64,000 nucleotides of DNA from an uncultured bacterium (lineage in GTDB: Bacteria; Verrucomicrobiota; Kiritimatiellia; RFP12; UBA3636): assembly GCA_902793555.1 (NCBI GenBank), contig CADBEF010000008.1, positions 420 through 64,419 of the forward strand, in the 5' to 3' direction. A program made the translations under genes and the position numbers. The notes under the pieces were generated by a model, which was given only the letters and a program-made list of their open reading frames with translations, had not been told where the DNA came from and ran no database searches. Below, one piece after another: positions 8,112 through 49,140 of the stretch (position 1 is the first letter of the stretch; the number at the start of each line of letters is the position of its first letter).

Positions 8112-8139
8112 CCCGACCATCAAGACCATCCCGACCATG
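8112..8139 (+). repeat. Three 9-bp units (cccgaccat / caagaccat / cccgaccATG) ending in the start codon of the CE4 gene
   Basis: Member of the GACCATNNN leader-repeat family seen at seven gene starts. Confidence 0.85.
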
Positions 8140-9785: not shown

Positions 9786-9936
9786 GGGAGGGACGAGGGA
9801 CGAGTGACGAAAGACGGGGGACGAGGGAATCGTGGCGGGGAAAACGTTGGAAATCATACACGCAACGGTTCGGATTGTCACGAAGAATCGGGCAAGCGCC
9901 TGGCACGGATTCAAACAGGAATTGGCACAAAAATGA

Positions 9937-9965: not shown

Positions 9966-10014
9966 TAATGCTGTCTTCAGGATGAATTCCGACCATCTGC
10001 CCCCACCCGCACCG

Positions 10015-10055
10015 CATTCATCATTCAGCATTCAGCATTCAGCATTCAGCATTCC
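10015..10055 (+). repeat. Heptanucleotide microsatellite (CATTCAG)4 with partial flanking units
   Basis: cattca t cattcag cattcag cattcag cattcag cattcc. Lies in the 5' leader between the promoter candidate and ATG 10074. Confidence 0.95.
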
Positions 10056-10073
10056 ACTCAAATCCTCCCGACC

Positions 10074-11045
10074 ATGAACCGCATCATCCTCGCCACCCTC
10101 CTCCTCGCCGCTGGCGCGGCGCTCGCCGACGGCGCGCCCGATCCGAAAAAGGACCCTCGCCGCACCTACTCCACCGATGGCTGGGAGCTCGCCTGGAGCG
10201 ACGAGTTCAACGGCGCCGATCCGCTCGGCTACCTCGGGAACTGGCAGCACGAGGTCGGGTTCCTCCGCAACCACGAGCCGCAGTACTACACCAGCAACCG
10301 CGTCGCGAACTGCGTCCAGCGGGACGGCGTCCTCACGATCACGGCGCGCAAGGAGAAGTGGCCCAACCCGCTCTACAAGGACCGCGCGCTCGGCGGCTGG
10401 TACCGCCAGCGCGAGTTCGCGGACTACACATCCGCCGACCTCCAGTCGCGCCGCACGTTCCACTACGGGCGCGTCGAGTTCCGCGCGCAGATGCCCGGCG
10501 GCTGGGGCGCGTGGCCCGCGCTGTGGTTCCTCGGCGACTGCCTCCGCAAGCCAAAGGACGACCCCGAATACTACAACTGGCCCTGCTGCGGCGAAATCGA
10601 CCTCGTGGAGATCTGGGGAAACGCGCCGACCGGCGTCAAGGCCTGCCTGCACTCGTCGAAGATCGGCACGCGCGTGAAACCCAACGAGCAGCACACGGTG
10701 ACGGGCGGCGGCGAATTCCGCGCCAACCAGCCCGGCCAGGAGCCCTGGAACGGCTTCCACACCTACACGCTCGACTGGTACGAGGACCGGCTCTACATGT
10801 TCTACGACGGGCACCTCTACGCCGACGTCAACCTCGCCCGCAGCGACTGGCCGGACGGGCAGAACCCCTTCCGCAAGCCGATGTTCATCATCATGAACCT
10901 CGCCCTCGGCGGCTACGGCAACAAGGTCGTCGACGTGGACACCGTGGACGAGAAGAGCGGCAAGACGATTCCCGCCGCGAAGTTCCCGATGGAGCTGAAG
11001 ATCGACTGGGTGCGGCACTACCGCCGCGCCGGCTCCGCCGATTGA
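10074..11045 (+). CDS. GH16 beta-glucanase (laminarinase/licheninase-like), secreted
   Basis: Signal peptide 'MNRIILATLLLAAGAALA'. GH16 catalytic motif 'CGEIDLVE'. Preceded by 'tcccgaccATG'. Confidence 0.9.
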   Translation: MNRIILATLLLAAGAALADGAPDPKKDPRRTYSTDGWELAWSDEFNGADPLGYLGNWQHEVGFLRNHEPQYYTSNRVANCVQRDGVLTITARKEKWPNPLYKDRALGGWYRQREFADYTSADLQSRRTFHYGRVEFRAQMPGGWGAWPALWFLGDCLRKPKDDPEYYNWPCCGEIDLVEIWGNAPTGVKACLHSSKIGTRVKPNEQHTVTGGGEFRANQPGQEPWNGFHTYTLDWYEDRLYMFYDGHLYADVNLARSDWPDGQNPFRKPMFIIMNLALGGYGNKVVDVDTVDEKSGKTIPAAKFPMELKIDWVRHYRRAGSAD

Positions 11046-11064
11046 CGCCATTTCCATCCCGACC

Positions 11065-12384
11065 ATGAAACGAATCCTCCCGATCCTTCTCGTCCTCGCC
11101 GCCGCGCTCTGCGCCCCGCCCGCCGCCCGCGGCGCGGATCCCGCCGCGCCCTACGTTCCGACCTACGACGCCGAAACGGCGTGGTATTTGGGCGAGCTCG
11201 GCGTCACGAACCTTCTCGACGCCGGCATCACCGGCCGCGGCGTCCGGGTCGGCGTCATCGACTTCGGCATGGGCGACATCGTGACGGGAACGCGCACGAA
11301 CGTGCACTGCGCGGCGAAGGCCGGCCGGTCCCGCAAGGCCATGCACGGCCCGGCCGTCGAGGGCATCGTCGCCTCCGACGTCTACGGCATCGCGCCCGAA
11401 TGCGAGCTCTACGTCTACGACGACGGCGACGGCACCGTCGACGACCTGATCGCCGGCTTCGCCTGGTGCGCCTCGAACGGCTGCCGCGTGATTAACTACT
11501 CGGGCGGCGTCCACCGGTTCTCGCGGGGCGTCGTCGACCTTTCGGAGGAGGACGCCGCCGCGAAGCTGGAGGAGCTCCGCGACGCGGTCCGCGCGGCGAT
11601 GGGCGCGGGGTGCGTCGTCGTCGCGGCGGGCGGCAACGCGCCGAACGAGACGCTGACCTGCCCGCAGGACGTCGAGGGCGTGATCAACGTCGGCGGAATC
11701 ACGCGTTCGCGCCAGTCCGCCGGGCTCAACGACAACTGGTCGAAGGACTTCTGCGCCTTCGGCAAGGACGTGCCGGTCTTCGTCTCGCGCTCCGGCGCGA
11801 CCGGCCGGGAGAGCGGCTCGTCCTTCGCCGCGCCGATGGCGACCGGCCTCATCGCGCTCCTGCTGCAGCAGGAGCCCTCGCTCACGCGCGACGAGATCTA
11901 CGGCATCCTGGAATCCACCTCCGCGAAGCTCGCCGAGGGCCGCTCGAAGATCTACGGCTTCGGCCTCCTCCGGGCCGCGCGGGTCCCGGCGGACTACAAG
12001 CGCCAGGCCGCGTTCGACGCCGAGCGCGCCGCGTTCGTGCGCATGACCTCGGCCGAGCTCCTCAACGAGGGCCTCGGCTGGAACGCCGAGCGCGGCTTCT
12101 ACGAGGCGAAGATGCGTCCCGGCGAGTCGATCCGGCTGGAATACCGGGGCTTCCCCGGGAACGCCACCGACACCAACCTCTACTGGTACTGCGGCAACAT
12201 GCCGACCTTTTCGCCGATCGGCCTCGACCAGGTCCTTTCGATCCCCGCGAAGACGAAGCCCGGCGAGTTCCTCGTCTACGACGCCCGCAACGACGCGCGG
12301 CAGATCGTCTGCCGCCTCCGCGTCGACGTCGTCGCGCCCCCGCCCGCGGACTCGGCGCCCGCCGGCGCACCGTCGAAGCGCTGA
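11065..12384 (+). CDS. Subtilisin-like serine protease (S8), secreted
   Basis: Signal peptide. Asp in 'VGVIDFG', His in 'HGPAVEGIV', Ser in 'GSSFAAPMATG'. Preceded by 'catcccgaccATG'. Confidence 0.9.
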   Translation: MKRILPILLVLAAALCAPPAARGADPAAPYVPTYDAETAWYLGELGVTNLLDAGITGRGVRVGVIDFGMGDIVTGTRTNVHCAAKAGRSRKAMHGPAVEGIVASDVYGIAPECELYVYDDGDGTVDDLIAGFAWCASNGCRVINYSGGVHRFSRGVVDLSEEDAAAKLEELRDAVRAAMGAGCVVVAAGGNAPNETLTCPQDVEGVINVGGITRSRQSAGLNDNWSKDFCAFGKDVPVFVSRSGATGRESGSSFAAPMATGLIALLLQQEPSLTRDEIYGILESTSAKLAEGRSKIYGFGLLRAARVPADYKRQAAFDAERAAFVRMTSAELLNEGLGWNAERGFYEAKMRPGESIRLEYRGFPGNATDTNLYWYCGNMPTFSPIGLDQVLSIPAKTKPGEFLVYDARNDARQIVCRLRVDVVAPPPADSAPAGAPSKR

Positions 12385-18173: not shown

Positions 18174-19366
18174 GAAGAACGATCCTCCCCCTGATTTCCG
18201 CCGCCGCGCTTCTTGCGCCGGCCGCCAACGCCGCGGAACCCGCGGCCGCAACCGCCGAACTTCCCGCCTGGCGCGACGCGCAGGGCGCCGGGCGCGGTGC
18301 GTACACGGTCGCCGTCCTCGGCGACACGCACTTCGACGCGGCGCCGGAGTCGGTCTACCATTCGCACTACGACGAGTCCAACCGCTACGCGAAGGTCCAG
18401 CACGAGGAGTTCCGCCGCAACGGCGAGATGTGGGCCCCCGGCGGACGCTGCCGATCGCTCGTCGCCGCCGGCGCGGCGCTCGCCGCCGCGGACCCCGCCA
18501 CGCGCTTCGTCCTGCAGCTCGGCGACCTCGTGCAGGGCGACTGCTACGACGACGGCGACCACCGCCGGATGCTCGACGACGGCCTGGCCGCCGTCCGCGG
18601 CCCCTTCCCCGCGGGCCTGCCGTTCCTCGCGGTCCTCGGCAACCACGACTACCGCGGCGCCGCCAGCGCGCGCGGCGTCACCCTCCGCTGGTTCGACGAG
18701 CTCCTCTCGCGCGAGACCGGCGCGCCGGTCTCCCTCCCGCTCCTCTCCTTCCGCGTGGACGACGACCGCTGGATCCTCTGCGACTTCGAGACGGTGGACC
18801 TCCTCGCCCTCGCGCGCGAGGTCGAGTCCGACCCGGACGCGCGCTACGTGTTCCTCGTCACGCACGGCCCCCTCACCGCGCCGGACGCGGCGAGCTGGCG
18901 CTGGAGCCTCAGCGGCTGGCCGAACAAGGGCGGCTGCGGGCGCGGCGTCCAGGAGCTCTTCGAGGCGGTCTCGCGCCGCCGCGCCATCGTGCTCTCCGGC
19001 CACATGCACTGGACGGCCTTCTTCCGCAACGAGAATCCGCTCGGCGGCTACACCGAGCTCACCGTCAACTCCGTCTGGAAGTCCGACGAGATCGCCACCG
19101 CCGAACCCGTCAACGACACCCCCGCCCAGTACGGCCTCCGCCGCCGCGACAAGGTGAACGCATGGGACCTCAAGGACTACGACGCCGCGATCGCACGCTA
19201 CAAGGCGGGCCTGAAGGAATACTTCCTCGGCCTCGGCGCGGGCCACTACCGCCTCGAGATCTCCGACGACAAGGTCCTTGCGCGCTTCTATCCCGGCGCC
19301 GCGACCGAGCCCGCGCGCACGTTCGATCTAACCCCAGGCAAGCCGCTTTGCGGCCGTGACGAGTGA
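18170..19366 (+). CDS. Metallophosphoesterase (calcineurin-like), secreted
   Basis: 'VAVLGDTHFD', 'LQLGDLVQGD', 'VLGNHDY' motifs. Signal peptide 'MRRTILPLISAAALLAPAANA'. ATGA overlap with the upstream gene. Confidence 0.85.
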   Translation: MRRTILPLISAAALLAPAANAAEPAAATAELPAWRDAQGAGRGAYTVAVLGDTHFDAAPESVYHSHYDESNRYAKVQHEEFRRNGEMWAPGGRCRSLVAAGAALAAADPATRFVLQLGDLVQGDCYDDGDHRRMLDDGLAAVRGPFPAGLPFLAVLGNHDYRGAASARGVTLRWFDELLSRETGAPVSLPLLSFRVDDDRWILCDFETVDLLALAREVESDPDARYVFLVTHGPLTAPDAASWRWSLSGWPNKGGCGRGVQELFEAVSRRRAIVLSGHMHWTAFFRNENPLGGYTELTVNSVWKSDEIATAEPVNDTPAQYGLRRRDKVNAWDLKDYDAAIARYKAGLKEYFLGLGAGHYRLEISDDKVLARFYPGAATEPARTFDLTPGKPLCGRDE

Positions 19367-19423
19367 AGAGTGAAGAGTGAAGAGTGAAGAGTAAAGAGTG
19401 AAGAGTGAAGAATGAAGAGTGAG
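19361..19423 (+). repeat. Heptanucleotide microsatellite (GAGTGAA)n, 9 units (variants gagtaaa, gaatgaa, gagtgag)
   Basis: Overlaps the TGA stop of the phosphoesterase (19364-19366) and contains the first ATG (19412) of the next gene. Confidence 0.95.
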
Positions 19424-21057: not shown

Positions 21058-21138
21058 TATCCCCGAAGGGGCGCCCCGGAAGGGACGAACCTCTTTTTAA
21101 AGGCCCGACAATCACACGATTGATACAAGGAGATTCCC

Positions 21139-27937: not shown

Positions 27938-27966
27938 TTGCCGCGTGTGCGCGCGTTCGCTATAAT
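27938..27966 (+). promoter_or_regulatory. Sigma70-like promoter TTGCCG-17-TATAAT
   Basis: ttgccg cgtgtgcgcgcgttcgc tataat, ~105 nt upstream of ATG 28071. Confidence 0.5.
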
Positions 27967-28012: not shown

Positions 28013-28073
28013 GCCCAGACCATCCAGACCATACGACCATACGACCATACGACCATCTGACCATCCGACCATG
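28013..28073 (+). repeat. Leader repeat array: seven degenerate 8/9-bp units (cagaccatc cagaccata cgaccata cgaccata cgaccatc tgaccatc cgaccATG) ending in the start codon
   Basis: Preceded by the conserved module 'cggccgtacgccagcccaga', which recurs at 37465-37487. Confidence 0.9.
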
Positions 28074-32248: not shown

Positions 32249-32327
32249 TCGACCTGAAGGGACGCCCCATCCGGGCGGACCTGCTTTCAAAGCCCGTCAA
32301 TCACCCGGTTGACACGTGGAGATTCCC

Positions 32328-35300
32328 ATGAAACATCCGTTCGCTCTCGTTGCGGCCGCGCTTCTCGCGGGCGCGCTCGTTCTCCCCTCCGCGCGCGCGG
32401 CGGACGCGGACGCCACCGGCCTCGTGCCCACGATCTGGTGGGACTTCGAGACCAAGCCCAGCGCCTCGGGCCTCGCCACGGCGAACAAGGGCGCGACCTA
32501 CCAGGCGGGCGTCACGAACGGCTGGGCCGTTGACACGTCGAAGTTCACGCCGTATTCGCAGGCGAACGGCGCCTTCTCGACGGCCGGCGGCGCCTACACC
32601 GTGTCCCTCGTCATGAACCTCGGGACGACCAAGAACGGCATCACGCTGAACCTCCGCAATGAAACCGGCGAAAGGGACCTGATCGTCCGCCGCGGTTCGA
32701 CCGCGGGCTCGCTCGTCGTCGGCTGCGACGTCTGGAAGGTCGCCACAAGACACAATCTCACGACGACGTTCGAGGACGACTCGACCTACCATCTCGTCTC
32801 CGTCGTCGTGGAGGAGTCTGGCTTCTCGCTCTACGTGGACGGCGAGTTCGTCGGGTCCGAGACGGGCTTCACCCTGTGGACCGCCACGGGCCGCGCCAGC
32901 CGCCTCCAGTTCGGTGCGCACCTCAGCGGCATGCCCTCCGGCGAGGCGAAATACGGCGGCTGCATCGACGACCTGCGCATCCACGACGCGGCGCTCACGC
33001 CCGCGCAGATGAAGCTGATCGCCGCCGAATACGGCCTTGCCTCCATCGATGGCTTCATCGCCGTCGTCCCGTCCGGGGAACCGACGGTCGGAACGGATTC
33101 CTTCCGCGCGCCGTTCGCCCTGCGCGTGCCCGAGGGCGACGCGGCCGAGGCCGCGATCGTCTACGGCACGGACGCCGCGCTGTCGGCCCCGGCCACGAAC
33201 GTCGTCGGTTCGGCGCTGACGGCCGGCAACTACGAGGCGTTGCTTCCCAATCTCGTGTCTGGCACGACCTACTGGTGGAAGATCGTCGCGAGCAACGGCG
33301 TCAACCGGGCCGAGACGGACGTTGCGTCATTCCGCACGCTCGACGTGATCGTCCCGACGGACTACGCCAGGCGCATTCCCGCCGTCCTCTCCGGCTATGC
33401 CGGAACGGATACGCTCACGAATTTCCCCGTTCTCGTGAAGCTCGCGGCGGACGCGCCCATCGGCTTCGACTACGCCGACTGCGCGGAGGATGGCGCGGAC
33501 ATTCGCTTCGCGACTCCGGACGGCACGGTGCTGCCGCACGAGATCGACACGTGGAACACGAACGGCGAGTCGTTCGTCTGGGTGAAGATCCCGGCGATCT
33601 CCGGTACCGCTACGGCGTTCTCGATGTACTACGACGCGCCGGACCCGGCGGCGCTTCCGCCGGTCGATCCGCACGACGTCTGGACCGCGGCCGGGCACCG
33701 CGCCGTGTGGCACTTCGCGACAAACGCGACGGAATCCGCGCAGGGTCTGGTCGCCTCCACGGCCACCGGCACGCCGTCCTACGCGAACGACGGCGCCGTC
33801 GGCAAGTGCTGGCAGAGCGCGGGCGAGGCGTGGTTGCAGTACGCCAACGACGCCTCGTGGAGCGCACTCGGCGCGGGTTCGACGCTCACGATTTCCACCT
33901 GGGCCAAGTTCGACTCCACTTCCTATGGCTACAACCGCATCCTCTCCACGATGTCGACCTGGGAACAGCCGGCCGGCTACGAATTGACCGTCCAGGACGA
34001 CAAGAACGAGATCACCGTCGGATCGAGCGGGAAAAGCCAGTACCAGAAGGTCGTTTCGCCGGGCCCGTCGGACGAGATGGTCTACCTCACGGCCGTCTAC
34101 AACGCCGACCGCTACGCGGACCTCTACGTGAACGGCGTCCGGCAGGAGCACAAGCAGCTCAACGCGGTCGTGCAACCGACGGAGACGATGACGGTCGCCT
34201 GTTTGGCCGGCGGCGGCAACGTCTGGAACGGCTCCCTGGACGAGCTCCGCCTCCACGCGGCCGCCGAATCGGCCGACTGGGTCAAGGCCTGCTACGACAC
34301 GATGGCGACGCCGGCGTCGTTCGTCGCCCTCTCGCCGGCCGAGTCGACCGACCCCGACCTGCCGCGGTTCGGCGCGCTCTCCGCGTCCGATGCGAACGGC
34401 GTCGCAACCTTCACCGCTCCGCTCGCCGTGCCCGGCTACGGCGGCGAAGTCCCGACCTCCGTCTCGGTCTTCTACGGGACGGACGGCGAAACCTGGACGG
34501 AGCTTTCCCTCGGTTCGACGAACGAGGCCGCGACGCTGACCGTCTCGGCGTCCGGGTTCGCGGTCGGCGTCCGGTACCTCTGGTACGCCGTCGCCACCGC
34601 GACGAGCGGCGGCACGCCCAAGACGACGGTCTCCCAGCCGCAGTCGTTCGTCGCCAGGGCCTTCGATCCGACGGGGAACTACAAGTCCTTCACGGCGACC
34701 GTCGTCTGGGACGGCGCGCCCGCGGAGAACCTCCCGTTCCTGCTGCGCATCTCCGAGGGCGGCGTCAACGGCTTCGACTACGACGACGTCACGGCGTCCG
34801 GCCTCGAGATCCTCGACGCGGACGGACAGCTGCTTCCCTTCGAGATCGACACGTGGAACACGAACGGCGAATCGCTCGTCTGGGTCCTCCCGCCCGTCTA
34901 CGAGGACGGTGCGACGGTCACGGTCCGCTACGGCGCCCCGTTCGCCAACGCGCCGCTCCCCGCGACGAACGTCTGGACGGCCTATGTCGCCGTGTGGCAC
35001 ATGAACGAAATCCTCGTGGACGCCGAGTCCGGCAACCACTACACGCCCGATTCCACCGCGAGCGGCTGGCATGCCTTCAAGTCCGACGAGGCGGACGCCG
35101 TTCTGTCGCCTGTGACAACCGCGCCCGGCGCCTCCGCGCATCCGACGCCCCTCACCGGAACGGCGATGAACATCGCCTACGGCGCAGGGAAGTCGAGCTC
35201 GTCCCTCGGCGGCTTCCGCGTCCCGGCGGACCAAACCTCCTCGACCACGCTGGACGGCCCCGGCTTCACGCTCTCCGCCATCGTCAACTCGCAGCAGGCC

Positions 35301-37375
35301 GCCAACGACGGCCGCTGCCGCGTGATCGCCTTCGGAAACGAATACAACGACAGGGCCAACTTCGCGGTCGGCTCCGACAAGATCTACTGCATGGGATCCA
35401 ACTCCCACAACAAGACCAATCCGAAGGGCGCGACGGGCTGGGTCTACGCCGCGGACGTCTTCAACTCGCCGTATTCGAAGATCTACGCCGACGGCGTCTG
35501 CCTTTCCGCCAGCAACGAGGGCAACCCCAACCTCGCTAGCCTCACGCTCGACAAGGGCATCGGCCTCGGCTGCTTTACGGGCGGCAAACAGTGCCTCGAC
35601 GGCTACCTCGACGAGGCGCGCATCCGCAACGCGGCTTCGACCGCCGACTGGATCGCCGCCGAATACCACACGATGGCGGACGGCGCCGTCTCCTTCTCCT
35701 CCGTTTCGTCATCCGACACGTCCGTCCCCGTTCTCGGGACGCCGTCCGTCGCGCGCAACCCGGACGGCTCGTTCACCGTCTCGGTCGCCGTTTCCGAAAA
35801 CGACCCCGCGTCGATCGCCTGCATGATCGGAGGGACCGACTACGCGATGACGCCCGCGAACGCATCGCTCCCAACGACGTATTCCGCCACGGTTTCCGAT
35901 CTCGCGCCCGGCACCTACGTCGCGTCCGTCCATGCGACGGCGACGAGCGGAACGTCCGTTTCCTCGACCTGCCCGGACGCCTTCCACGCCGGAGCGCTGA
36001 CGATCGTAAAGATTTCCGACGCCGACGAAGGCACGCTCTCGCCCGGCGTCTTCCGTGTCTCGCGTGCGGACGCCGATTCCACGAGCCTGCCGGCGCTGAC
36101 GTTCGACGTGGCGTTCTCCGGCCCCGGGCTCGCCGGGATCGCCGATCCGGGGATTTCGGCCGCCACGATCCCCGCCGGCGCGGCGTATGTCGACATCGCC
36201 GTCACGCCCATTCCGAACGATGCCGTGAACGAGAATCTCGAACTCGTCCTGACCGTCTCGGGCGCGCACGTCGGCCAATCCTCCACCGCCTCGCTGACCG
36301 TCGTGAACTCGAGTTTCGACCTGGCGGTCCGCTACGTCGCCACGACCGGCAACGACGCCAACTCCGGCGGCACGCCCGAGTCTCCCAAGAAGACGATCGC
36401 CGCCGCCGTCGCCGCCCTCGGCCCCATCGCGCCGACGCGGACCTGCACCGTCCACGTCGCGCCGGGGCTGTACCCGATCACGTCGCCGATCGTCGTCACG
36501 AACGCGATTTCCGTCATCGGCGATGATTCGGACCCTTCGCGCGTTATCGTATCGAATACAGTGCCAAGTGGCAACGCAAGCCAGGAACATCGGGTGTTTA
36601 TCATTGCGAATGCCGACGCTCTTATAGCCAACCTGACGATGCAGAAGGGCGAAGCCTACAGCCGGAACGGGGGCAACTTCAACATCGGCACGGCTGGCGG
36701 CATGGTTTCCAATTGCGTGGTGGAAGCGGGCTATGCACGCGACAACGGAAAGGCGGCCGGTGCCTGGCTCGATGCGGGCGTCGTCACGCACACGGTCTTC
36801 CGGAAGAACTATTCGAGTGCCGGATCCGTCACCTGGGAGGGCGTTCGTGCGGGGCTTCTCCAGCTCAACGGCCAGGCCCGCGCCGAAAACTGCCTCTTCG
36901 TCCAGAACAACCAGACCGCATCCGTCCGGCTGATCAACGTGCACGGCTCCTCGGTCATGCGCAACTGCACGATCGCCGATTCGTCCCTTTCGAAGACGAA
37001 TGACGCCTGCACGACGTGGTGCGTACTCAACATCGCCTCCGGCGCGACCGTGCAGAATGTCGTGATCGCCGGCGTGACGAACACGATCGACGGCGCGACC
37101 TGCGCGATCACGGGGACCGTCGCGAACTTCCGGAACGGCGCGTTCGACGGCGACGCGACACGGCGGCTTCGTTCTTCCCGCACTACGCGAAGAACGTCCC
37201 CTACGCGATCAAGTACCAACCCAAGGCCGGCGGCCCGCTCTACGACAAGGGCGCCGACTACGCGCCGATGGCCGCGTTCGACCTCTCGGGGACGCAGAAG
37301 CGCAAGATCGCCTCGCATATCGACATCGGCTGCTACGAGGCGAACGGAGCTGCAACGGTGGTCATCGTGAAATGA
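32328..37375 (+). CDS. Giant secreted LamG/DUF2341/beta-helix protein, paralog of 21139-26730. Carries an apparent -1 frameshift near 37155-37170, so it is a possible pseudogene or a sequencing error
   Basis: Signal peptide 'MKHPFALVAAALLAGALVLPSARA'. Main frame runs to ~37160 ('...NGAFDGDAT'). The authentic C-terminus '...ASFFPHYAKNVPYAIKYQPKAGGPLYDKGADYAPMAAFDLSG...GCYEANGAATVVIVK' is in the -1 frame (ORF 37016-37375). Relative to the paralog, a ~45-nt, non-triplet deletion sits at this point. Confidence 0.6.
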
Positions 37376-37458
37376 ACCCCGTCCTTTCCGCGGACTTTCC
37401 CGGCGGCGGCGCGGTGGTGCTCGGCCCCGACGGCGCAACCGTCCGCCTCGCGAACCCA
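37372..37458 (+). pseudogene. Remnant of the M14-like gene 5' end (first ~29 codons: 'MNPVLSADFPGGGAVVLGPDGATVRLA'), fused in-frame to the downstream leader repeat and GH16 gene
   Basis: Nucleotide and protein homology to 26727-26815 ('MKTPVLSADFPGGNVRVLGIEGDTVHLA'). Homology ends at ~37458, where the 'cgtacgccag...gaccatcc' leader module begins. Confidence 0.6.
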
Positions 37459-37483
37459 ACGCCCATCGTTCGGTCGTACGCCA

Positions 37484-37512
37484 GTCCAGACCATCCGGAC
37501 CATCCGACCATG
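37484..37512 (+). repeat. Leader repeat (cagaccatc cggaccatc cgaccATG) ending in the GH16 start codon
   Basis: Same family as 28013-28073, with the same upstream 'cggtcgtacgccagtcca' module. Confidence 0.9.
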
Positions 37513-38406
37513 GACACTTCACTCGACTCCCTCCCCCTCGTCTGCGAAACGGCGGACGCCGTCCCCGGCCACGAGCCGAGCCTGCTGCCGCCCGGGCGGA
37601 AATGGACGCTCGCCTGGAACGACGAGTTCGACGGCGACCGCCTCGACGAGACGAAGTGGCGCTTCCGCACGAACTTCTGGGGCCGCCGCGCGCACTGGTT
37701 CGCGACGCCGGAGGACGGCGCCGTCGAGGTCCGCGACTCGCTCTGCCGGCTCAAGCTCGTGAAGAAGCCCGACGGACAGTTCGTCACGCCGCAGCTGCAG
37801 ACCGGCGAGCTCGTCTGGGACATCCCGCACGAGAAGGAACCGAAGGGCTTCTGGCCGCTCCCGAAGCGCGAGCCGCCGACGTTCATGCACCGCTACGGCT
37901 ACTACGAATGCCGCTGCCGCACGCAGCAGATGCCGGGCTGGTGGACGGCCTTCTGGATGCAGGCGCCGATGCAGGGCTGCTCGCTCGACCCGCGCCGTGC
38001 GGGCATCGAGCACGACATCATGGAGTCGTTCGAGCCGGGGACTCTCATCCCGCACTACTTCCACGCGAACGGCTACGGCGACGACTACGCCCCCTTCCAC
38101 ACGCCCCGCGCGGCGGAGATGAGCGACACGCTCTCGTTCGACAAGGCCGCCTTCCACCGCTTCGGGATGCTCTGGGAGCCCGACGGCTACACGATCTACA
38201 TCGACGGCCGCCAGCACGGCGAGAAGGTCGGCGGCGGACCCGGCGAGGCCGTCTCGCAAACCGAGGAGTTCGTCCTGATCTCCGCCGAGGCGAAGTGGTA
38301 TCGCGACCGCCACATGACCGGCGAGGGCGTCCCTGAGCTCGAGGACGCCTGGCGCGCCGGCGACGCCTTCCTCGTCGACTACGTCCGCGTCTTCGATCCC
38401 GCCTAG
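37510..38406 (+). CDS. GH16 beta-glucanase-like protein (no signal peptide)
   Basis: GH16 catalytic motif 'GIEHDIMES'. 'WTLAWNDEFDGDRLDETKW' N-terminal region is typical of GH16. Start placed at the ATG ending the leader repeat; an in-frame upstream extension to 37372 exists (see the pseudogene remnant). Confidence 0.8.
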   Translation: MDTSLDSLPLVCETADAVPGHEPSLLPPGRKWTLAWNDEFDGDRLDETKWRFRTNFWGRRAHWFATPEDGAVEVRDSLCRLKLVKKPDGQFVTPQLQTGELVWDIPHEKEPKGFWPLPKREPPTFMHRYGYYECRCRTQQMPGWWTAFWMQAPMQGCSLDPRRAGIEHDIMESFEPGTLIPHYFHANGYGDDYAPFHTPRAAEMSDTLSFDKAAFHRFGMLWEPDGYTIYIDGRQHGEKVGGGPGEAVSQTEEFVLISAEAKWYRDRHMTGEGVPELEDAWRAGDAFLVDYVRVFDPA

Positions 38407-38411
38407 GTCTC

Positions 38412-38493
38412 CTAGCCCATCCAGACCATCCCGACCATCCCGACCATCCCGACCATCCCGACTATCCAGACCATCCAGACCATCCCGACCATG
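38412..38493 (+). repeat. Tandem array of nine 9-bp units (consensus GACCATCCC; one 'gactatcca' variant) ending in the ATG of the GH10-like gene
   Basis: cccatccagaccatcccgaccatcccgaccatcccgaccatcccgactatccagaccatccagaccatcccgaccATGccc. Confidence 0.95.
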
Positions 38494-39933
38494 CCCTCCC
38501 CGCTCTCCCCCGCCTACTACGACCGCTGGAACGCCGACGAACAGGCGCGCATCGACGCGGACATCGAGAAATACCGCAAGGCCGACGCGACCGTCGCGCT
38601 CGGTGCCCCCGCCGGCGCCGAGGTGACGGTCGAACAGACCACGCACGCGTTCCGCTTCGGCGCGCACACGTTCAACTTCGACCAGCTCGGCTCGCACGAG
38701 CGCAACGAGCGCTACAAGGCGCTCTGGAACGGCGCCTTCGCCGACGGCGCGCTCTTCAACTCCGGCACCATCGCGTTCTACTGGCGCCCGTTCGAGCCCG
38801 TCGAGGGCAAGATGCGCTTCGACCCCGCCCCCGAGGACTCGGAGGACTGGTGGAACGCCTGCCCCGACCCGAAGGAGCAGCGCTTCTGGCGCCGCCCGCC
38901 GAGCGAGCCCGTCGTGCGCTTCCTGGAGGACAAGGGCGCCTGGCGCCACGGCCACCCGCTCGTCTGGTCCAACCACGAATGGCACTATCCGGACTGGCTC
39001 ATGGCGAAGCTCCCCAAGGAGATCATGGCCGAGATGCTCACGGACGACCGTTCCGGCGTCTCGATCATGAAGCAGCCGATGGAGACGGTCCTCAAGCGGC
39101 TCCCCGCGGACTTCCCCGCCCAGGTCGAGTCCGCGCACCGCCGCCGCATCGAGGCCATCGCCGCGCGCTACGCCGACCGCGTGGACAGCTGGGACGTCTG
39201 CAACGAGAGCGCGAACGACTGGACCGCCGGCCGGCTCGTCCGCGGCGCCCCGCTCTCCCGCAGCTACCGCTTCTCGTGGCTGCCCGGCGACTACTGCCAC
39301 TGGGCCTTCCGCGAGTGCATGCGCCTCTTCCCCGCGAAGAGCGTCCTCTCGATCAACGACTACCAGCTCGACGCCGACTACGCCGAGCAGACGCGCGACC
39401 AGCTCGCCCGCGGCGACAAGATCGACCTGCAGGGCATGCAGATGCACCTGTTCAACCCCGCGGACTGCGAGGCGATCGCGCAGGGGAAGATCGAGCTGCG
39501 CTCGCCGGCGCACGTCCGCTCGCAGATCGCCGCCGCGCACGCGCGCCCCGGCCTGCCGATCCACCTCTCCGAGATCACGATCTCCGCGCCCGGCGGCGAC
39601 GAGCGCGGCGAGGTCGTCCAGGCCGAGATCGCCCGCAACCTCTACCGCCTGTGGTTCTCGCTGCCGGACATGGTGGCCATCACCTGGTGGAACGTCGTCG
39701 ACGACTGCGGCGCGCCCGGCGAGCCGTCCGTCTCGGGGCTCTTCCGCCGCGACATGACGCCGAAGAAGGCCTTCTTCGCGCTCGACCGCCTGATCAACGA
39801 CGAGTGGCGCACGCGCCTCACGGCGAAGGCCGACGCCACCGGCGCCGTCGCCTTCCGCGGCTTCCGCGGCTCCTACCGCCTCTCCTGGCGCGACGCCTCC
39901 GGCGCGTCCTGCGAAGCAACCACATCCATCTAG
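38491..39933 (+). CDS. GH10-like glycoside hydrolase (clan GH-A), xylanase-type motifs
   Basis: 'WDVCNE' (catalytic acid motif WDVVNE-like) and 'HLSEITISA' (nucleophile ITE-like). No signal peptide. Confidence 0.7.
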   Translation: MPSPLSPAYYDRWNADEQARIDADIEKYRKADATVALGAPAGAEVTVEQTTHAFRFGAHTFNFDQLGSHERNERYKALWNGAFADGALFNSGTIAFYWRPFEPVEGKMRFDPAPEDSEDWWNACPDPKEQRFWRRPPSEPVVRFLEDKGAWRHGHPLVWSNHEWHYPDWLMAKLPKEIMAEMLTDDRSGVSIMKQPMETVLKRLPADFPAQVESAHRRRIEAIAARYADRVDSWDVCNESANDWTAGRLVRGAPLSRSYRFSWLPGDYCHWAFRECMRLFPAKSVLSINDYQLDADYAEQTRDQLARGDKIDLQGMQMHLFNPADCEAIAQGKIELRSPAHVRSQIAAAHARPGLPIHLSEITISAPGGDERGEVVQAEIARNLYRLWFSLPDMVAITWWNVVDDCGAPGEPSVSGLFRRDMTPKKAFFALDRLINDEWRTRLTAKADATGAVAFRGFRGSYRLSWRDASGASCEATTSI

Positions 39934-39975
39934 ACCAACCCGACCATCAAGACCATCTAGACCATCTAGACCATG
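39934..39975 (+). repeat. Leader repeat (ccgaccatc aagaccatc tagaccatc tagaccATG) ending in the GH2 start codon
   Basis: Same 9-bp family. Contains in-frame TAG codons, so it is not translated from upstream. Confidence 0.9.
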
Positions 39976-41649
39976 GACCCTCTTTCCCTGAACGGCTCCT
40001 GGGCCTTCCGATTCGAGGAGGGCGCCCTCCTCGCCGACGCCGCCCGCCCCGACTTCGAGCCCGCCTGCACGATCGCCGTGCCCGCGTGCTTCGATACGCT
40101 CCCGGACTGGTACCTCCGGCGAGGCGTCGGCCTCTACCGGCGCACGTTCCGCCTCGACCGCGACGTCCCCGCCGCGTGGCTCCGCGTGGACGGGATGGGG
40201 CTCGTCGGAGCCTTCTGGATCGACGGCCGCCCGATCGGCGAAAGCGCCCTCCCCTACTCCACCCTGCGCATCCCGACCGGACCGCTCGCCGCCGGCGAGC
40301 ACGTGCTCGCCGCCGCGCTCGGCAACCGGCTCGACGAGCCGCGCCTCGCGCTCGCCAAGCCCTACTACGACTTCTACCTCCACGGCGGCTTCTACCACGG
40401 CGTCTCGCTCGTCTTCGACGACCGGTCCCTCCGAGTCCGCACGCGCGACATCCGCGACGGCACCGTCGAGATCGAGGTCGTGAACGTCCCGAAGCCCGAC
40501 TTCGGCGCGACGCTTCTCTTCGACGGCCGCAACGCCGTCTCCGCGTCCTTCCGCGGCGGCCGCGCGACCGTCCGCGTCCCGGACTTCCGCCTCTGGTCAC
40601 CGAATTCTCCGAACCTCCACACCGTGGAGCTTGTCGACCATCCCGACCATCCAGACCATCCGACCATCCAGACCAAGTTCGGCATCCGCGCCATCGAGGC
40701 CCGCGCCGGCCGCATCCTCCTCAACGGCGAGCCGATCTTCCTCAAGGGCGCGAACCGCCACGAGGCGCACCCGACCTTCGGCGCGGCGACGCCCGAGGCG
40801 GTGATGCTCGCCGACATCCAGAACCTCAAGGCGCTCGGCGCGAACTTCGTCCGCGGCGCGCACTACCCGCAGGCGGAGCGCTTCCTGGACCTCTGCGACG
40901 AGAACGGCCTCCTCGTCTGGGAGGAGACGCTCGGCTGGGGCAACGGCACGCCGTGGAACGACCCCGCGAAGAAGGAGTTCGCGAACCCCGACTTCCTCGC
41001 GGACAACCTCGCACAGGCGCGGCTGATGGTCGAAAAGTCGTTCAACCACCCGTCCGTGGTCCTCTTCGGCTTCCTCAACGAGTTCGCGAGCGACACGCCC
41101 GACGGCAAGGCCGTCGCCGACCGGATCGTCGCGCAGATCCGCTCCTACGACTCCGGCCGGCTCGTCACCTTCGCGTGCAACCACAACGCGAGCGACATCG
41201 CCAACGAGGCCACGGACGTCGTCTCCTTCAACACCTACCCGGGCTGGATCGGTTCGCAGCCCGGCACGCCGGAGCATCTGCAGGAACTGATGGAGAAGGA
41301 CCTCGCGGGCATCGTCGCGTACTTCCGCTCGAAGTGGCCGGGCAAGCCCATCCTCGTCTCCGAAATGGGCGCGTGCGGCGAATACGGCCGCCACGACGCG
41401 GCCGCGGCGCAGTGGACCGAGGAGTTCGAGGCCGAGTACCTCGCGGACGCCGCGCGCGCCGTCGCCGCGCGTCCGGAGATCTGCGGCTTCACGATCTGGC
41501 AGCTCGCCGACTGCCGCAGCTTCCACCGCGGCGGCGCGGACGTCCGCTGCAAGCCCTTCGCGGAGAACCTCGCCGGGATCTACGACGGCTACCGCCGCCC
41601 GAAGCTCCCCGTCGTCGCCGCCGTCAAGGCCGCCTTTCGTGCCGGCTAG
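39973..41649 (+). CDS. GH2-family glycoside hydrolase (beta-glucuronidase/beta-galactosidase/beta-mannosidase-like)
   Basis: 'LKGANRHE', 'NHPSVVLFGFLNE' (acid/base) and 'ILVSEMGA' (nucleophile). Contains the in-frame DHP repeat insert at 40636-40672. Confidence 0.85.
   Translation: MDPLSLNGSWAFRFEEGALLADAARPDFEPACTIAVPACFDTLPDWYLRRGVGLYRRTFRLDRDVPAAWLRVDGMGLVGAFWIDGRPIGESALPYSTLRIPTGPLAAGEHVLAAALGNRLDEPRLALAKPYYDFYLHGGFYHGVSLVFDDRSLRVRTRDIRDGTVEIEVVNVPKPDFGATLLFDGRNAVSASFRGGRATVRVPDFRLWSPNSPNLHTVELVDHPDHPDHPTIQTKFGIRAIEARAGRILLNGEPIFLKGANRHEAHPTFGAATPEAVMLADIQNLKALGANFVRGAHYPQAERFLDLCDENGLLVWEETLGWGNGTPWNDPAKKEFANPDFLADNLAQARLMVEKSFNHPSVVLFGFLNEFASDTPDGKAVADRIVAQIRSYDSGRLVTFACNHNASDIANEATDVVSFNTYPGWIGSQPGTPEHLQELMEKDLAGIVAYFRSKWPGKPILVSEMGACGEYGRHDAAAAQWTEEFEAEYLADAARAVAARPEICGFTIWQLADCRSFHRGGADVRCKPFAENLAGIYDGYRRPKLPVVAAVKAAFRAG
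40636..40672 (+). repeat. In-frame intragenic copy of the GACCATCCN 9-bp repeat, encoding 'DHPDHPDHPT' in a GH2 inter-domain loop
   Basis: gtcgaccatcccgaccatccagaccatccgaccatccag. The same DNA unit forms the upstream leaders. Confidence 0.9.
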
Positions 41650-49000: not shown

Positions 49001-49140
49001 GGCGGGATTCGGGTTTCGGGAGACGGGTTTCGCGGCGGGTTTCGGCGCGGCGCCGTCGCGCCGCGGGCGGGTTTCGCGAAACCCGAAACCCGAGTCCCGC
49101 GGCGAATCCCGAAATCCGAATCCCGAATCCCGAAATTGCA
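49001..49140. repeat. Imperfect long inverted repeat built from GGGTTTC / GGGATTC heptamers, centred on the 16-bp palindrome gggtttcgcgaaaccc. The right arm is (CGAATCC)-like x5
   Basis: gggattcgggtttcggg...gggtttcgcgaaacccgaaaccc...gaatcccgaaatccgaatcccgaatcccgaaa. Confidence 0.85.

What the first reader, a model, noticed from the sequence alone, without database searches (positions are those of the whole stretch)
38412..38493. Start-codon-terminated tandem 9-bp 'GACCATCCC' leader repeats at seven gene starts
Directly upstream of ATG in seven genes, the last 9-bp unit supplies the start codon (...cccgaccATG). The genes are CE4 (8112-8139), GH16 (10062-10076), S8 (11050-11067), giant gene (28013-28073), GH16b (37484-37512), GH10 (38412-38493, nine units) and GH2 (39934-39975). 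The unit is 9 bp, so copy-number change keeps the reading frame; translated it would read Asp-His-Pro. Most of these genes have no Shine-Dalgarno sequence. This pattern is not a feature of known translation-initiation signals. It could be a translational enhancer, a binding array for a regulator or sRNA, or a frame-neutral phase-variable leader. It is the most distinctive signal in the window.
Basis: seen in the sequence. Interest (0 to 1): 0.9.

Follow-up and report, generated by a model that had tools for sequence, protein, structure and literature searches.

The report
Tandem-repeat leaders abutting start codons
In this uncultured rumen Kiritimatiellae bacterium and its relatives, many genes are preceded by short G-poor tandem repeats (mostly GACCATCNN) whose last unit supplies the ATG; these tracts are predicted to be almost structure-free in a 70% G+C genome, vary in copy number even between near-identical strains, and most likely act as Shine-Dalgarno-independent ribosome landing zones.

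Summary
Five genes carry true GACCAT tandem arrays of 3-9 units that end exactly in GACCATG. Two more (GH16, S8) carry a single such unit. An eighth array lies inside the GH2 reading frame.

The same arrays occur in independent rumen assemblies of GC-rich Kiritimatiellae, before kinase-, dehydrogenase- and epimerase-like genes. They always lie on the sense strand and are usually phase-locked to the ATG. Copy number differs at orthologous starts (3 vs 9, 5 vs 6). One unit differs between strains separated by one SNP in 5.7 kb.

At the GH10 start, relatives carry other units (AACCATCNN, CTTCAACCN) or a non-repetitive G-free leader. What is conserved is G depletion, A at -3, no upstream ATG and no SD. 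Repeat leaders fold at -0.4 to -5 kcal/mol, against -35.5 for background windows.

Best reading (about 0.5): structure-free, SD-independent initiation leaders, built and resized by slippage of the start-proximal sequence. Rivals are tolerated STRR-like repeats, a specific GACCAUC-binding factor, Rho loading sites and phase variation. No transcript or translation data exist.

The parts
38415..38493 (+). GH10 leader: 9 units (GCCCATcca, GACCATccc x4, GACTATcca, GACCATcca, GACCATccc, GACCATG). It fills the whole 84-nt GH16b-GH10 spacer.
   Evidence: (TRF period 9, 8.4 copies, score 124). A near-identical strain, L254, has 8 units.
39924..39975 (+). GH2 leader: about 5-6 units (ATCCATcta, GACCAAccc, GACCATcaa, GACCATcta x2, GACCATG). 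The GH10 stop TAG lies in the first unit. There are three TAGs in frame with the ATG.
40636..40672 (+). Array inside the GH2 ORF, translated as DHPDHPDHPTIQT. It lies in the loop between the beta-sandwich and the TIM barrel.
   Evidence: It is conserved in L199 and replaced by (CGTCACT)x9 in L255.
37489..37512 (+). GH16b leader: 3 units (GACCATccg, GACCATcc, GACCATG).
   Evidence: The orthologues have 4 units (L138) and 2 units (L255).
37372..37488 (+). Remnant of the 5' end of an M14-like gene (paralogue of the gene at 26727) plus the shared flank CGTACGCCAGYCCAGACC. It is in frame with GH16b.
28018..28073 (+). Leader of the 1309-aa LamG-type gene: 7 units, mostly 8 bp (GACCATac), ending in GACCATG followed by a signal peptide.
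   Evidence: (period 8).
27938..27966 (+). Promoter-like TTGCCG-17-TATAAT. It would place the 28018-28070 array inside a 5' UTR of about 100 nt.
   Evidence: consensus match only.
8115..8139 (+). CE4 leader: 3 units (GACCATcaa, GACCATccc, GACCATG) in a 34-nt intercistronic spacer.
   Evidence: the gene upstream ends at 8102.
10066..10076 (+). GH16 start: a single unit CCCGACCATG.
11053..11067 (+). S8 protease start: TCCATCCCGACCATG, about 1.5 units. The orthologue in L246 has 2 full units.
10014..10054 (+). GCATTCA x5.9, 20 nt upstream of the GH16 ATG, in the AraC/GH16 divergent spacer.
9786..9828 (-). AraC leader: C/T-rich heptamers (CGTCCCT/CGTCACT) x about 6, ending 3 nt before the ATG at 9785.
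19356..19422 (+). GTGAAGA x9.6, C-free, running across the GH20 ATG (19412). The orthologue in L246 has 6.7 copies.

Best explanation
The arrays are 5'-leader or intercistronic mRNA segments that give the start codon a structure-free, Shine-Dalgarno-independent ribosome landing zone in a 70% G+C genome.

Each unit (GACCAUC + 2 variable nt) reiterates the local start context: A at -3, CC at -2/-1, and AUC where the real site has AUG. It carries only one G per 8-9 nt and no AUG. An array therefore cannot pair with itself and offers no competing start.

The arrays arise and change length by replication slippage of the sequence immediately 5' of the ATG. This explains why the last unit is in phase with the ATG and supplies it. 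It would also let leader length, and possibly expression, be retuned quickly.

Other unit families (AACCATCNN, CTTCAACCN, CGTCCCT, GCATTCA, GTGAAGA) and non-repetitive G-free leaders are alternative solutions to the same requirement.

Shown here: position, phase, strand, composition, predicted lack of structure, copy-number polymorphism and unit turnover. Inferred: that the tract is transcribed, that it raises initiation, and that selection rather than tolerance maintains it.
For: 1. Anchoring. In the window, 5 of 6 multi-unit arrays end in GACCATG at the first ATG of a long ORF. In contigs of the same lineage (tetranucleotide r >= 0.95 to the window, or short orthologous contigs), about 25 arrays end in (G/A)ACCATG plus an ORF, 3 end within 6-34 nt of the ATG, and about 5 are elsewhere. 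This is my tally from the listings.

2. Always on the sense strand of the downstream gene.

3. Inside the presumed mRNA. Promoter-like boxes lie upstream of arrays at window 27938-27966 and in L155, where TTGCCT-17-TACAAT is followed by an 18-unit array and then GGCCATG plus a signal peptide. Other arrays fill spacers of 34-84 nt between same-strand genes.

4. No SD in any of the seven leaders, whereas other genes in the window have GGAG-type SDs.

5. Predicted folding of -60..+30 windows. Background is -35.5 +/- 7.2 kcal/mol. GH10 is -0.4, the 1309-aa gene -1.8, GH20 -4.7, GH16 -5.0 and AraC -5.1.

6. Random genomic 7-9-mers made into 63-nt arrays fold at a median of -20 to -23 kcal/mol, and only 8-11% reach >= -1. 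Of the 12 observed units, 7 give 0.0 and 10 give >= -3.6.

7. Census of 119.6 kb of protein-anchored lineage DNA. Of 23 arrays, 13 end within 28 nt of a start or overlap it. All 13 have sense-strand G <= 0.15 or C <= 0.06.

8. Orthologous GH10 leaders: GACCATCCN x9 (window), x8 (L254), x2 (L246), AACCATCNN x7 (L243), a decayed array (L255), CTTCAACCN x4 at 96.6% nt identity (L249), and a 47-nt G-free non-repeat leader (L252).

9. Slippage-type polymorphism. Exactly one unit differs between strains separated by 1 SNP in 5.7 kb. Other orthologous starts show 3 vs 9 units at 97.7% identity, 5 vs 6 and 8 vs 10.

10. 8-bp units are common in leaders, so the tract is not constrained as coding.

11. 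A at -3, depletion of AUG and low structure are the published positive determinants in SD-poor bacteria (PMC6847099). C/A-rich enhancers are known in enterics (PMC3879156).
Against: - There are no transcript, ribosome-profiling or reporter data for any of these genes.
- Folding values are predictions, and any G-poor sequence is unstructured by construction.
- The core GACCATC is far better conserved than a purely compositional requirement needs. Position 7 is C in 92% of 9-bp units, while positions 8 and 9 vary. The core also recurs at dozens of unrelated genes.
- Pure GACCATCTA arrays are predicted to fold (-18.4 kcal/mol).
- Arrays of the same families also occur inside ORFs as linkers (GH2, L037), and a few are not next to any start (L180, L181 second array).
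- Cultured Kiritimatiellae are reported to use SD at about 63% of genes (PMC10783764), so SD-independent initiation is not the default for the class.
Confidence: 0.5

Rival explanations
1. Tolerated or selfish dispersed short tandem repeats, like the cyanobacterial STRR heptamers. The lineage has a high rate of minisatellite formation. A few unit families spread or arise repeatedly and survive only where they do no harm: leaders, spacers and protein loops. They have no function of their own.
For: - Several unrelated unit families share the same distribution.
- The same families appear in a tolerant protein loop of GH2: GACCAT 9-mers in the window and CGTCACT heptamers in L255, while many relatives have no insert.
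- Units are replaced quickly at one site.
- Some arrays decay (L255 GH10 leader).
- STRR repeats of unknown function are described in cyanobacteria (PMC2670836).
Against: - Random units would mostly be strongly structured, yet the observed ones are almost all structure-free.
- Arrays are strand-specific and phase-locked to the ATG in about 80% of cases.
- When the repeat is lost, the orthologous leader stays G-free (L252).
- In the census, 13 of 23 arrays lie in the roughly 2% of sequence just upstream of starts.
Confidence: 0.2
2. A sequence-specific recognition array. GACCAUC units would be bound by a lineage-specific RNA-binding protein, an sRNA with AUGGUC repeats, or a segment of the ribosome. 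The array would act as a multivalent recruitment or repression site.
For: - The heptamer GACCATC is conserved over 315 units in 38 arrays, while the two following bases and the spacing (8 or 9) vary.
- The same core recurs at many unrelated genes and in several species.
- Orientation is strict.
Against: - Orthologues replace the unit by AACCAT, CTTCAACC or a non-repeat leader without losing the gene.
- Copy number ranges from 1 to at least 21, with no preferred valency.
- No partner was identified, and there is no Rfam family in the window.
- Core conservation is partly built into how units were collected.
- The 16S rRNA of the lineage could not be retrieved, so complementarity could not be tested.
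Confidence: 0.15
3. Rho-utilisation (rut) sites. Long C-rich, G-poor, unstructured untranslated RNA would load Rho, so transcription of the downstream gene would depend on efficient ribosome loading (attenuation or polarity control).
For: The long arrays are 60-190 nt with about 0.5 C, about 0.11 G and no predicted structure. From general knowledge, that matches the C>G, unstructured character of rut sites.
Against: - Many sites have only 1-3 units, too short to be rut sites.
- The co-occurring GTGAAGA family is C-free.
- Phase-locking to the ATG has no role in Rho loading.
- Arrays precede housekeeping-type genes.
Confidence: 0.08
4. Contingency (phase-variable) loci. High-frequency gain and loss of units would switch or grade expression of surface and glycan-degrading genes within a population.
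For: A one-unit difference between strains that differ by one SNP in 5.7 kb. Different copy numbers at orthologous starts.
Against: - The tracts lie between the -10 box and the ATG, or between cistrons, not in promoter spacers or ORFs. A unit change therefore alters neither frame nor -35/-10 spacing.
- Copy numbers are identical in independent assemblies of the same strain: L001/L002 and the window, and L126/L239. L130 and L153 (96.8% nt identity) also both carry 3 units.
- The arrays are not restricted to surface or CAZyme genes.
Confidence: 0.07

Closest known systems
SD-independent initiation regions of SD-poor bacteria (Kozak-like A-3, low structure, AUG depletion; Baez et al. 2019, PMC6847099)
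   Same: There is no SD. A is at -3 in every GACCATG start. No other ATG lies in the leader. Predicted structure around the start is very low.
   Different: Here the region is built of reiterated 7-9-nt units that include the start context itself. It is C-rich rather than A-rich. It coexists in the same genome with ordinary SD genes. No functional data exist.
C/A-rich (ACA) translational enhancers of enteric mRNAs, the targets of the GcvB sRNA (Yang et al. 2014, PMC3879156); also the G-less repeat-containing TMV Omega leader (my recollection, not checked here)
   Same: These are G-poor C/A-rich sequences upstream of the start that raise initiation. Their effect is additive over several motif copies and tolerant of position.
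   Different: The ACA trinucleotide is absent from GACCATCCN units. The enteric enhancers act together with an SD. No sRNA partner is known here.
Cyanobacterial STRR (short tandemly repeated repetitive) heptamers (as cited in PMC2670836)
   Same: A few families of 7-bp tandem repeats are dispersed through non-coding regions next to genes. Their function is unknown, and translational coupling or transcript stability have been proposed.
   Different: STRR tracts are described as hairpin-forming. The arrays here are predicted to be structure-free, are phase-locked to the ATG, and occur in a different phylum.
Simple-sequence contingency loci of host-adapted bacteria (general knowledge)
   Same: Slippage-prone tandem repeats next to gene starts, with copy-number differences between very close strains.
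   Different: The tract lies neither in the ORF nor in the promoter spacer, so an on/off mechanism is not apparent. The genes include housekeeping-type ones.
Tandem repeats of Borg extrachromosomal elements (PMC9879509, abstract only)
   Same: Pervasive, rapidly evolving, independently arising short tandem repeats. Within ORFs they create low-complexity or disordered protein segments, as in the GH2 linker here.
   Different: Those repeats belong to archaeal extrachromosomal elements. Start-codon phase-locking and G depletion are not mentioned in the abstract, which is all I read.

Membership tests
Shine-Dalgarno ribosome-binding site | A purine-rich tract complementary to the CCUCC of 16S rRNA, 4-12 nt upstream of the start. 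| tested here: not met
   No GGAG/GAGG/AGGA occurs in the 30 nt upstream of any of the seven starts. Other genes in the window do have one, e.g. aaggagattcccATG.
Kozak-like / unstructured initiation region of SD-poor bacteria (PMC6847099) | Adenine at -3. | tested here: met
   All seven starts read GACCATG. Lineage arrays end in (G/A)ACCATG.
Kozak-like / unstructured initiation region of SD-poor bacteria (PMC6847099) | Low mRNA secondary structure around the start. | tested here: met
   Predicted MFE of -60..+30 is -0.4 to -5 kcal/mol for long repeat leaders, against -35.5 +/- 7.2 for background. This is prediction only.
Kozak-like / unstructured initiation region of SD-poor bacteria (PMC6847099) | Depletion of AUG near the true start. 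| tested here: met
   Upstream units read ATC or ATA. G follows CAT almost only in the unit that carries the start.
Kozak-like / unstructured initiation region of SD-poor bacteria (PMC6847099) | A measured effect on translation efficiency. | not testable with these tools
   No ribosome profiling or reporters exist for this uncultured lineage.
C/A-rich ACA enhancer / GcvB target (PMC3879156) | ACA trinucleotides upstream of the start. | tested here: not met
   GACCATCCN and GACCATAC units contain no ACA, although C+A is about 0.7-0.76.
C/A-rich ACA enhancer / GcvB target (PMC3879156) | A G/U-rich sRNA that pairs with the element. | not tested
   No candidate was found. Rfam gave no hit in the window, and the rest of the genome is not available.
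Phase-variable contingency locus | Copy-number polymorphism between closely related strains. | tested here: met
   8 vs 9 units with one SNP in 5.7 kb. 3 vs 9 units at 97.7% identity.
Phase-variable contingency locus | A unit change shifts the reading frame or the -35/-10 spacing. | tested here: not met
   The arrays lie between promoter-like boxes and the ATG, or between cistrons.
Phase-variable contingency locus | High-frequency switching within a population. | not testable with these tools
   Only assembled contigs are available, not reads.
Cyanobacterial STRR repeats (PMC2670836) | Families of about 7-bp tandem repeats dispersed in non-coding DNA near genes. | tested here: met
   Heptamer families CGTCCCT, GCATTCA and GTGAAGA occur alongside the 8/9-bp GACCAT family.
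Cyanobacterial STRR repeats (PMC2670836) | Ability to form a hairpin. | tested here: not met
   Leader arrays are predicted to be unstructured. Only the inverted heptamer arrays at 49003-49135 could pair.
Rho utilisation (rut) site | At least about 60-80 nt of C-rich, G-poor, unstructured untranslated RNA. | tested here: inconclusive
   This is met by the GH10 and 1309-aa leaders and by the L155 array. It is not met by the 1-3-unit sites or by the C-free GTGAAGA leaders.

The most novel reading that the evidence does not exclude
GACCAUC units may be reiterated pseudo-start sites: the true start context with the near-cognate AUC in place of AUG. The initiation machinery, or a lineage-specific factor, would recognise them sequence-specifically, making the array a multivalent ribosome-recruiting antenna that feeds the adjacent AUG. 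That would be a new class of bacterial initiation signal.

A related possibility is that the few unit families are laid down by an active repeat-generating process. This would explain why the same families appear both in leaders and at one protein-loop hotspot in GH2.
Probability: 0.2. Interest if true: 0.85.

Novelty: new variant of a known kind. Interest (0 to 1): 0.62.

Why it matters
If the arrays do promote initiation, they show how a 70% G+C bacterium can solve the problem of start-codon accessibility without a Shine-Dalgarno sequence. It would do so by growing structure-free leaders through slippage of the start context.

They would also provide a natural allelic series (0, 1, 2, 3, 8, 9 or more than 18 units, or a different unit, at the same gene) for testing how leader length and composition tune translation.

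There are practical consequences for annotating rumen Kiritimatiellae MAGs. Gene callers run several starts through the arrays: P0013, P0012 and P0010 carry false N-terminal extensions such as TISTIQTIQTIPTIPTIST. The arrays are also sites of recombination and deletion between gene cassettes and of hypervariable protein linkers. Finally, they could serve as strain-typing markers.

Tried and rejected
1. Scan of genome contigs for GACCATN3GACCATN3GACCAT. Most hits were His/Asp-rich coding repeats from all phyla, and only three contigs (L037, L091, L121) were relevant.

2. Scan of metagenome contigs. The useful subset was recognised by G+C and tetranucleotide similarity.

3. Exact look-up of the GH10 protein failed. 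The near-identical strain in the collection differs from the window at one base inside the GH10 ORF (38876), which may be why; I did not check the codon.

4. Rfam found nothing in the window.

5. Translation of the array as an N-terminal extension: rejected. In-frame TAGs occur in the GH2 leader, 8-bp units are common, and stops precede the arrays.

6. Promoter or DNA operator array: considered unlikely. Orientation is strictly sense, the arrays are phase-locked to the ATG, and they sit in 19-84-nt spacers between same-strand genes. It is not excluded.

7. CAZyme regulon signal: rejected.

8. Pairing with the 16S 3' tail or 5' end: considered from memory of E. coli 16S only. I saw no convincing complementarity, and it cannot be tested without the lineage's rRNA.

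9. A mobile leader cassette. The flank CGTACGCCAGYCCAGACC is shared only by the GH16b and 1309-aa leaders and by L246. A segmental duplication explains it, and it is not a general feature.

10. Literature searches for GACCAT or start-codon tandem repeats and for Kiritimatiellae initiation found no description of this feature.

Full report
**Observation.** At 38415-38493 nine units (GCCCATcca, GACCATccc x4, GACTATcca, GACCATcca, GACCATccc) run into GACCATG, and the ATG at 38491 opens a 480-aa GH10 gene. Tandem Repeats Finder reports period 9, 8.4 copies, score 124.

The same construction ends at the ATGs of five genes:
- CE4 (8137), 3 units.
- A 1309-aa LamG-type secreted protein (28071), 7 units, mostly 8 bp.
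- GH16b (37510), 3 units.
- GH10 (38491), 9 units.
- GH2 (39973), 4-5 units.

GH16 (10074) and the S8 protease (11065) have a single CCCGACCATG.

GACCATCCC with up to one mismatch occurs 37 times against 18.0 +/- 4.5 in shuffles. GACCAT occurs 38 times on the + strand and 13 on the - strand. Seven of the eight + strand GACCATG heptamers sit on a gene start. None of the seven leaders has an SD-like purine tract. Other genes in the window do have one, for example aaggagattcccATG at 21139.

**Corrections to the description.**
- Units are 8 or 9 bp (232 and 32 of 277 spacings in the lineage) and the consensus is GACCATC + 2 variable bases.
- In the frame of the ATG the tract reads Thr-Ile-Pro/Gln, not Asp-His-Pro.
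- An eighth array lies inside the GH2 ORF (40636-40672). There it is read as DHPDHPDHPTIQT, just before the TIM barrel.
- Other tandem-repeat families sit at other starts in the window:
  - C/T-rich heptamers CGTCCCT end 3 nt before the AraC ATG on the minus strand (9786-9828).
  - GCATTCA x5.9 lies 20 nt before GH16.
  - GTGAAGA x9.6 runs across the GH20 ATG.

**Source and distribution.** The closest named homologues of GH10 and GH2 are from Kiritimatiellae MAGs. Contigs carrying identical or near-identical genes come from rumen metagenome assemblies. Each nevertheless contained a subset of 0.67-0.74 G+C contigs whose tetranucleotide usage matches the window at r >= 0.95.

In that subset the arrays are on the sense strand of a downstream ORF. 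By my tally from the listings, about 25 end in (G/A)ACCATG plus an ORF, three end 6-34 nt before the ATG, and about five are elsewhere.

The genes are not only CAZymes. Judging from N-terminal sequences alone, they include a cytidylate-kinase-like gene (MNKVICIDGPAGSGK), an isopropylmalate/isocitrate-dehydrogenase-like gene (MKTYNIAVIPGDGTG), a GDP-fucose-synthase-like gene, SDRs and an epimerase-like gene. An array also lies in the spacer before an acyl-carrier-protein-like gene.

**Are the arrays in the mRNA?** This is inferred, not shown.
- A TTGCCG-17-TATAAT match lies at 27938-27966, about 50 nt upstream of the 1309-aa gene's array.
- In L155, a TTGCCT-17-TACAAT match is followed after about 30 nt by an 18-unit array. 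The array ends in GGCCATG and a signal peptide.
- Elsewhere the arrays fill the entire 34-84-nt spacers between same-strand genes.

**Dynamics.** L254 differs from the window by one SNP in 5.7 kb and by exactly one GACCATCCC unit in the GH10 leader, 8 against 9. Other orthologous starts also differ:

| Start | Copy numbers | Nucleotide identity |
|---|---|---|
| Kinase-like gene | 3 vs 9 units | 97.7% |
| SDR | 5 vs 6 units | 90% |
| Dehydrogenase-like gene | 8 vs 10 units | 88% |
| GH16b | 2, 3 and 4 units | |
| S8 | 1 vs 2 units | |
| GH20 (GTGAAGA) | 9.6 vs 6.7 copies | |

Independent assemblies of the same strain agree in copy number. The tracts are therefore labile but not chaotic.

**Unit turnover: the most informative result.** At the GH10 start, relatives carry the following:
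- GACCATCCN x9, x8 or x2.
- AACCATCNN x7 (L243).
- A decayed array (L255).
- A different unit, CTTCAACCN x4, ending in caaccATG. This is in a contig 96.6% identical in the coding sequence (L249).
- A non-repetitive 47-nt leader without a single G, downstream of a TAGTACAAT box (L252/L253).
- In lower-G+C relatives, purine-rich leaders without repeats (L251, L247).

What persists is G depletion next to the start and an (R)ACCATG or CCCATG context. The repeat unit does not persist.

**Structure.**
- Predicted MFE of -60..+30 windows is -35.5 +/- 7.2 kcal/mol for random positions in the window.
- It averages -11 for the seven GACCATG genes and -17 for the other starts.
- It is -0.4 for GH10, -1.8 for the 1309-aa gene, -4.7 for GH20, -5.0 for GH16 and -5.1 for AraC.
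- This is not a trivial property of tandem repeats. Random genomic 7-9-mers reiterated to 63 nt fold at a median of -20 to -23 kcal/mol, and only 8-11% reach >= -1. Of the 12 observed units, 7 give 0.0 and 10 give >= -3.6.
- In a census of 119.6 kb of lineage DNA reached through proteins rather than through the repeat pattern, 13 of 23 arrays (period 6-12, at least 3 copies) end within 28 nt of an annotated start or overlap it. All 13 are depleted in G (<= 0.15) or, for GTGAAGA, in C (<= 0.06) on the sense strand.

**Interpretation.** The best-supported reading is that these tracts are structure-free, SD-independent initiation leaders.
- They combine the three determinants found experimentally in SD-poor bacteria: A at -3, little structure, and no competing AUG (PMC6847099).
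- They resemble the additive C/A-rich enhancers of enteric mRNAs, although they lack the ACA motif (PMC3879156).
- Their phase-lock to the ATG follows naturally if arrays grow by tandem duplication of the 8-9 nt ending in the AT of the start codon. Every upstream copy is then followed by the C that begins the next unit, and only the last copy is followed by G.
- Slippage then provides quick changes in leader length.

I put this at about 0.5, because nothing about transcription or translation has been measured.

**Observations that do not fit a purely compositional model.**
- The heptamer GACCATC is much better conserved than the two bases that follow it, and it recurs at many unrelated genes. 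Part of this conservation comes from how the units were collected.
- The same unit families appear inside ORFs. L037 has a membrane anchor followed by SSDHPEHPDHPDHPDHPDHP.
- The GH2 interdomain loop is a hotspot. It carries GACCAT 9-mers in the window, P0122, P0123 and L199. It carries DHQ repeats in P0126. In L255, which is 94% identical, it carries (CGTCACT)x9.3, the AraC-leader family. P0125, P0129, P0131 and P0136 have TRHxSPVTRH-type segments there, and many relatives have no insert.
- A 21-unit array in L180 is not next to a recognisable start.

These points keep three rivals alive:
- Tolerated STRR-like dispersed repeats (0.2; compare PMC2670836).
- A specific GACCAUC-binding factor or RNA (0.15).
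- An active repeat-generating process, which is included in the novel case.

Two further rivals are weaker. Rho loading sites (0.08) fit the long C-rich arrays but not the 1-3-unit sites or the C-free family. Classical phase variation (0.07) fits the polymorphism but not the position of the tracts.

**Comparison with known systems.** This is not an SD site: the defining feature was tested and not met. It meets the testable features of Kozak-like, unstructured initiation regions. It shares its distribution and unit size with cyanobacterial STRR repeats but not their hairpin-forming character. It shares slippage polymorphism with contingency loci but not their switching geometry. Searches of the paper library found no description of start-codon-terminated tandem repeats, nor any account of this feature in Kiritimatiellae. 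One survey reports that about 63% of genes in cultured Kiritimatiellae have an SD (PMC10783764). I therefore rate it a new variant of a known kind.

**Limits.**
- Both large pattern scans were truncated, so lineage-wide frequencies are not known.
- Lineage membership of short contigs rests on composition and orthology.
- Gene starts are those of automated callers or my own curation.
- Gene functions in relatives are read from N-terminal sequences only.
- Copy numbers come from short-read assemblies. The longest arrays (over 150 nt) may be collapsed.
- The 16S rRNA of the lineage could not be obtained.

Noticed in passing
window 40636-40672; alignment A1 columns about 240-292; L255 4917-4981; L199: The loop between the beta-sandwich and the TIM barrel of GH2 is a hotspot for in-frame tandem-repeat insertions of different families in close relatives. 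These are GACCAT 9-mers (DHP...), DHQ repeats, and CGTCACT heptamers read in all three frames (SPVTRHS...). Many relatives have no insert.
   Followed up: partly
window 37372-37488 compared with 26727-26830; L246 4634-4762: The first ~100 nt of an M14-like gene (MKTPVLSADFPGGN...), together with its ATGA-overlapped start, are duplicated upstream of GH16b. They are fused through CGTACGCCAGYCCAGACC and the array, in frame with GH16b. In L246 the same remnant sits directly before GH10, and the 1309-aa gene, the 1684-aa gene and GH16b are missing. This suggests deletion or recombination at or near the arrays.
   Followed up: partly
window 49003-49135: Heptamer arrays (TTCGGGA/TTTCGGG) are followed by their reverse complement (CGAAACC/CCCGAAA). 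This makes a long potential hairpin between the 3' end of the 1786-aa gene and the promoter region of the 408-aa gene on the minus strand. It may be a terminator built from tandem repeats.
   Followed up: no
window 39931-39972; 38404-38415; L255 2711-2771; L233; L243 4454-4504: Many units are GACCATCTA or AACCATCTA. They place TAG or TAA stops every 9 nt, often in frame with the stop codon of the upstream gene, giving runs of two to five tandem stops. In GH2 they are also in frame with the downstream ATG. They may be back-up stops or termination-reinitiation sites.
   Followed up: no
window 19356-19422; L246 548-594: The C-free GTGAAGA heptamer array spans the GH20 start codon; the ATG replaces the GTG of one unit. 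Copy number is 9.6 in the window and 6.7 in the orthologue.
   Followed up: partly
proteins P0010, P0012, P0013: Automated gene callers extend GH10 orthologues upstream through the arrays. This gives false N-terminal extensions such as MGERQAMVLTISTIQTIQTIPTIPTIST.
   Followed up: yes
L181 2170-2310: The spacer between an SDR (FabG-like) gene and an acyl-carrier-protein-like gene contains GAATGCT repeats and GACCAT 8-mers. These are followed by caaaacaacaacaacccccaacccaaacc and an SD-like aaggaaacaagccATG. This is a long G-poor C/A leader before a gene that is usually highly expressed.
   Followed up: no
window 21100-21141 and 32290-32330: The two giant DUF2341/LamG genes share nearly identical upstream regions (cccgNcaatcacNcgNttgaNacNNggagattcccATGaaa) with a clear SD. 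SD-type and repeat-type leaders therefore coexist in one gene cluster, and the cluster contains a segmental duplication.
   Followed up: partly
L137, L146, L152, L206, L212 (contigs named Ga0126342_*, G+C 0.41-0.47): Unrelated low-G+C contigs carry GACCATCCC arrays that are followed each time by TTATCCACGATGTTGATCCAGGATCG. They look like a separate repeat-associated element.
   Followed up: no
L247 5430-5470 and 11440-11497; L246 16020-16056; L139: More distant or neighbouring genes use further G-poor unit families directly before the ATG: CGACTAA, CGCACTA and CCCTTCAAC. L139 has CCTGAGA, which is not G-poor.
   Followed up: partly
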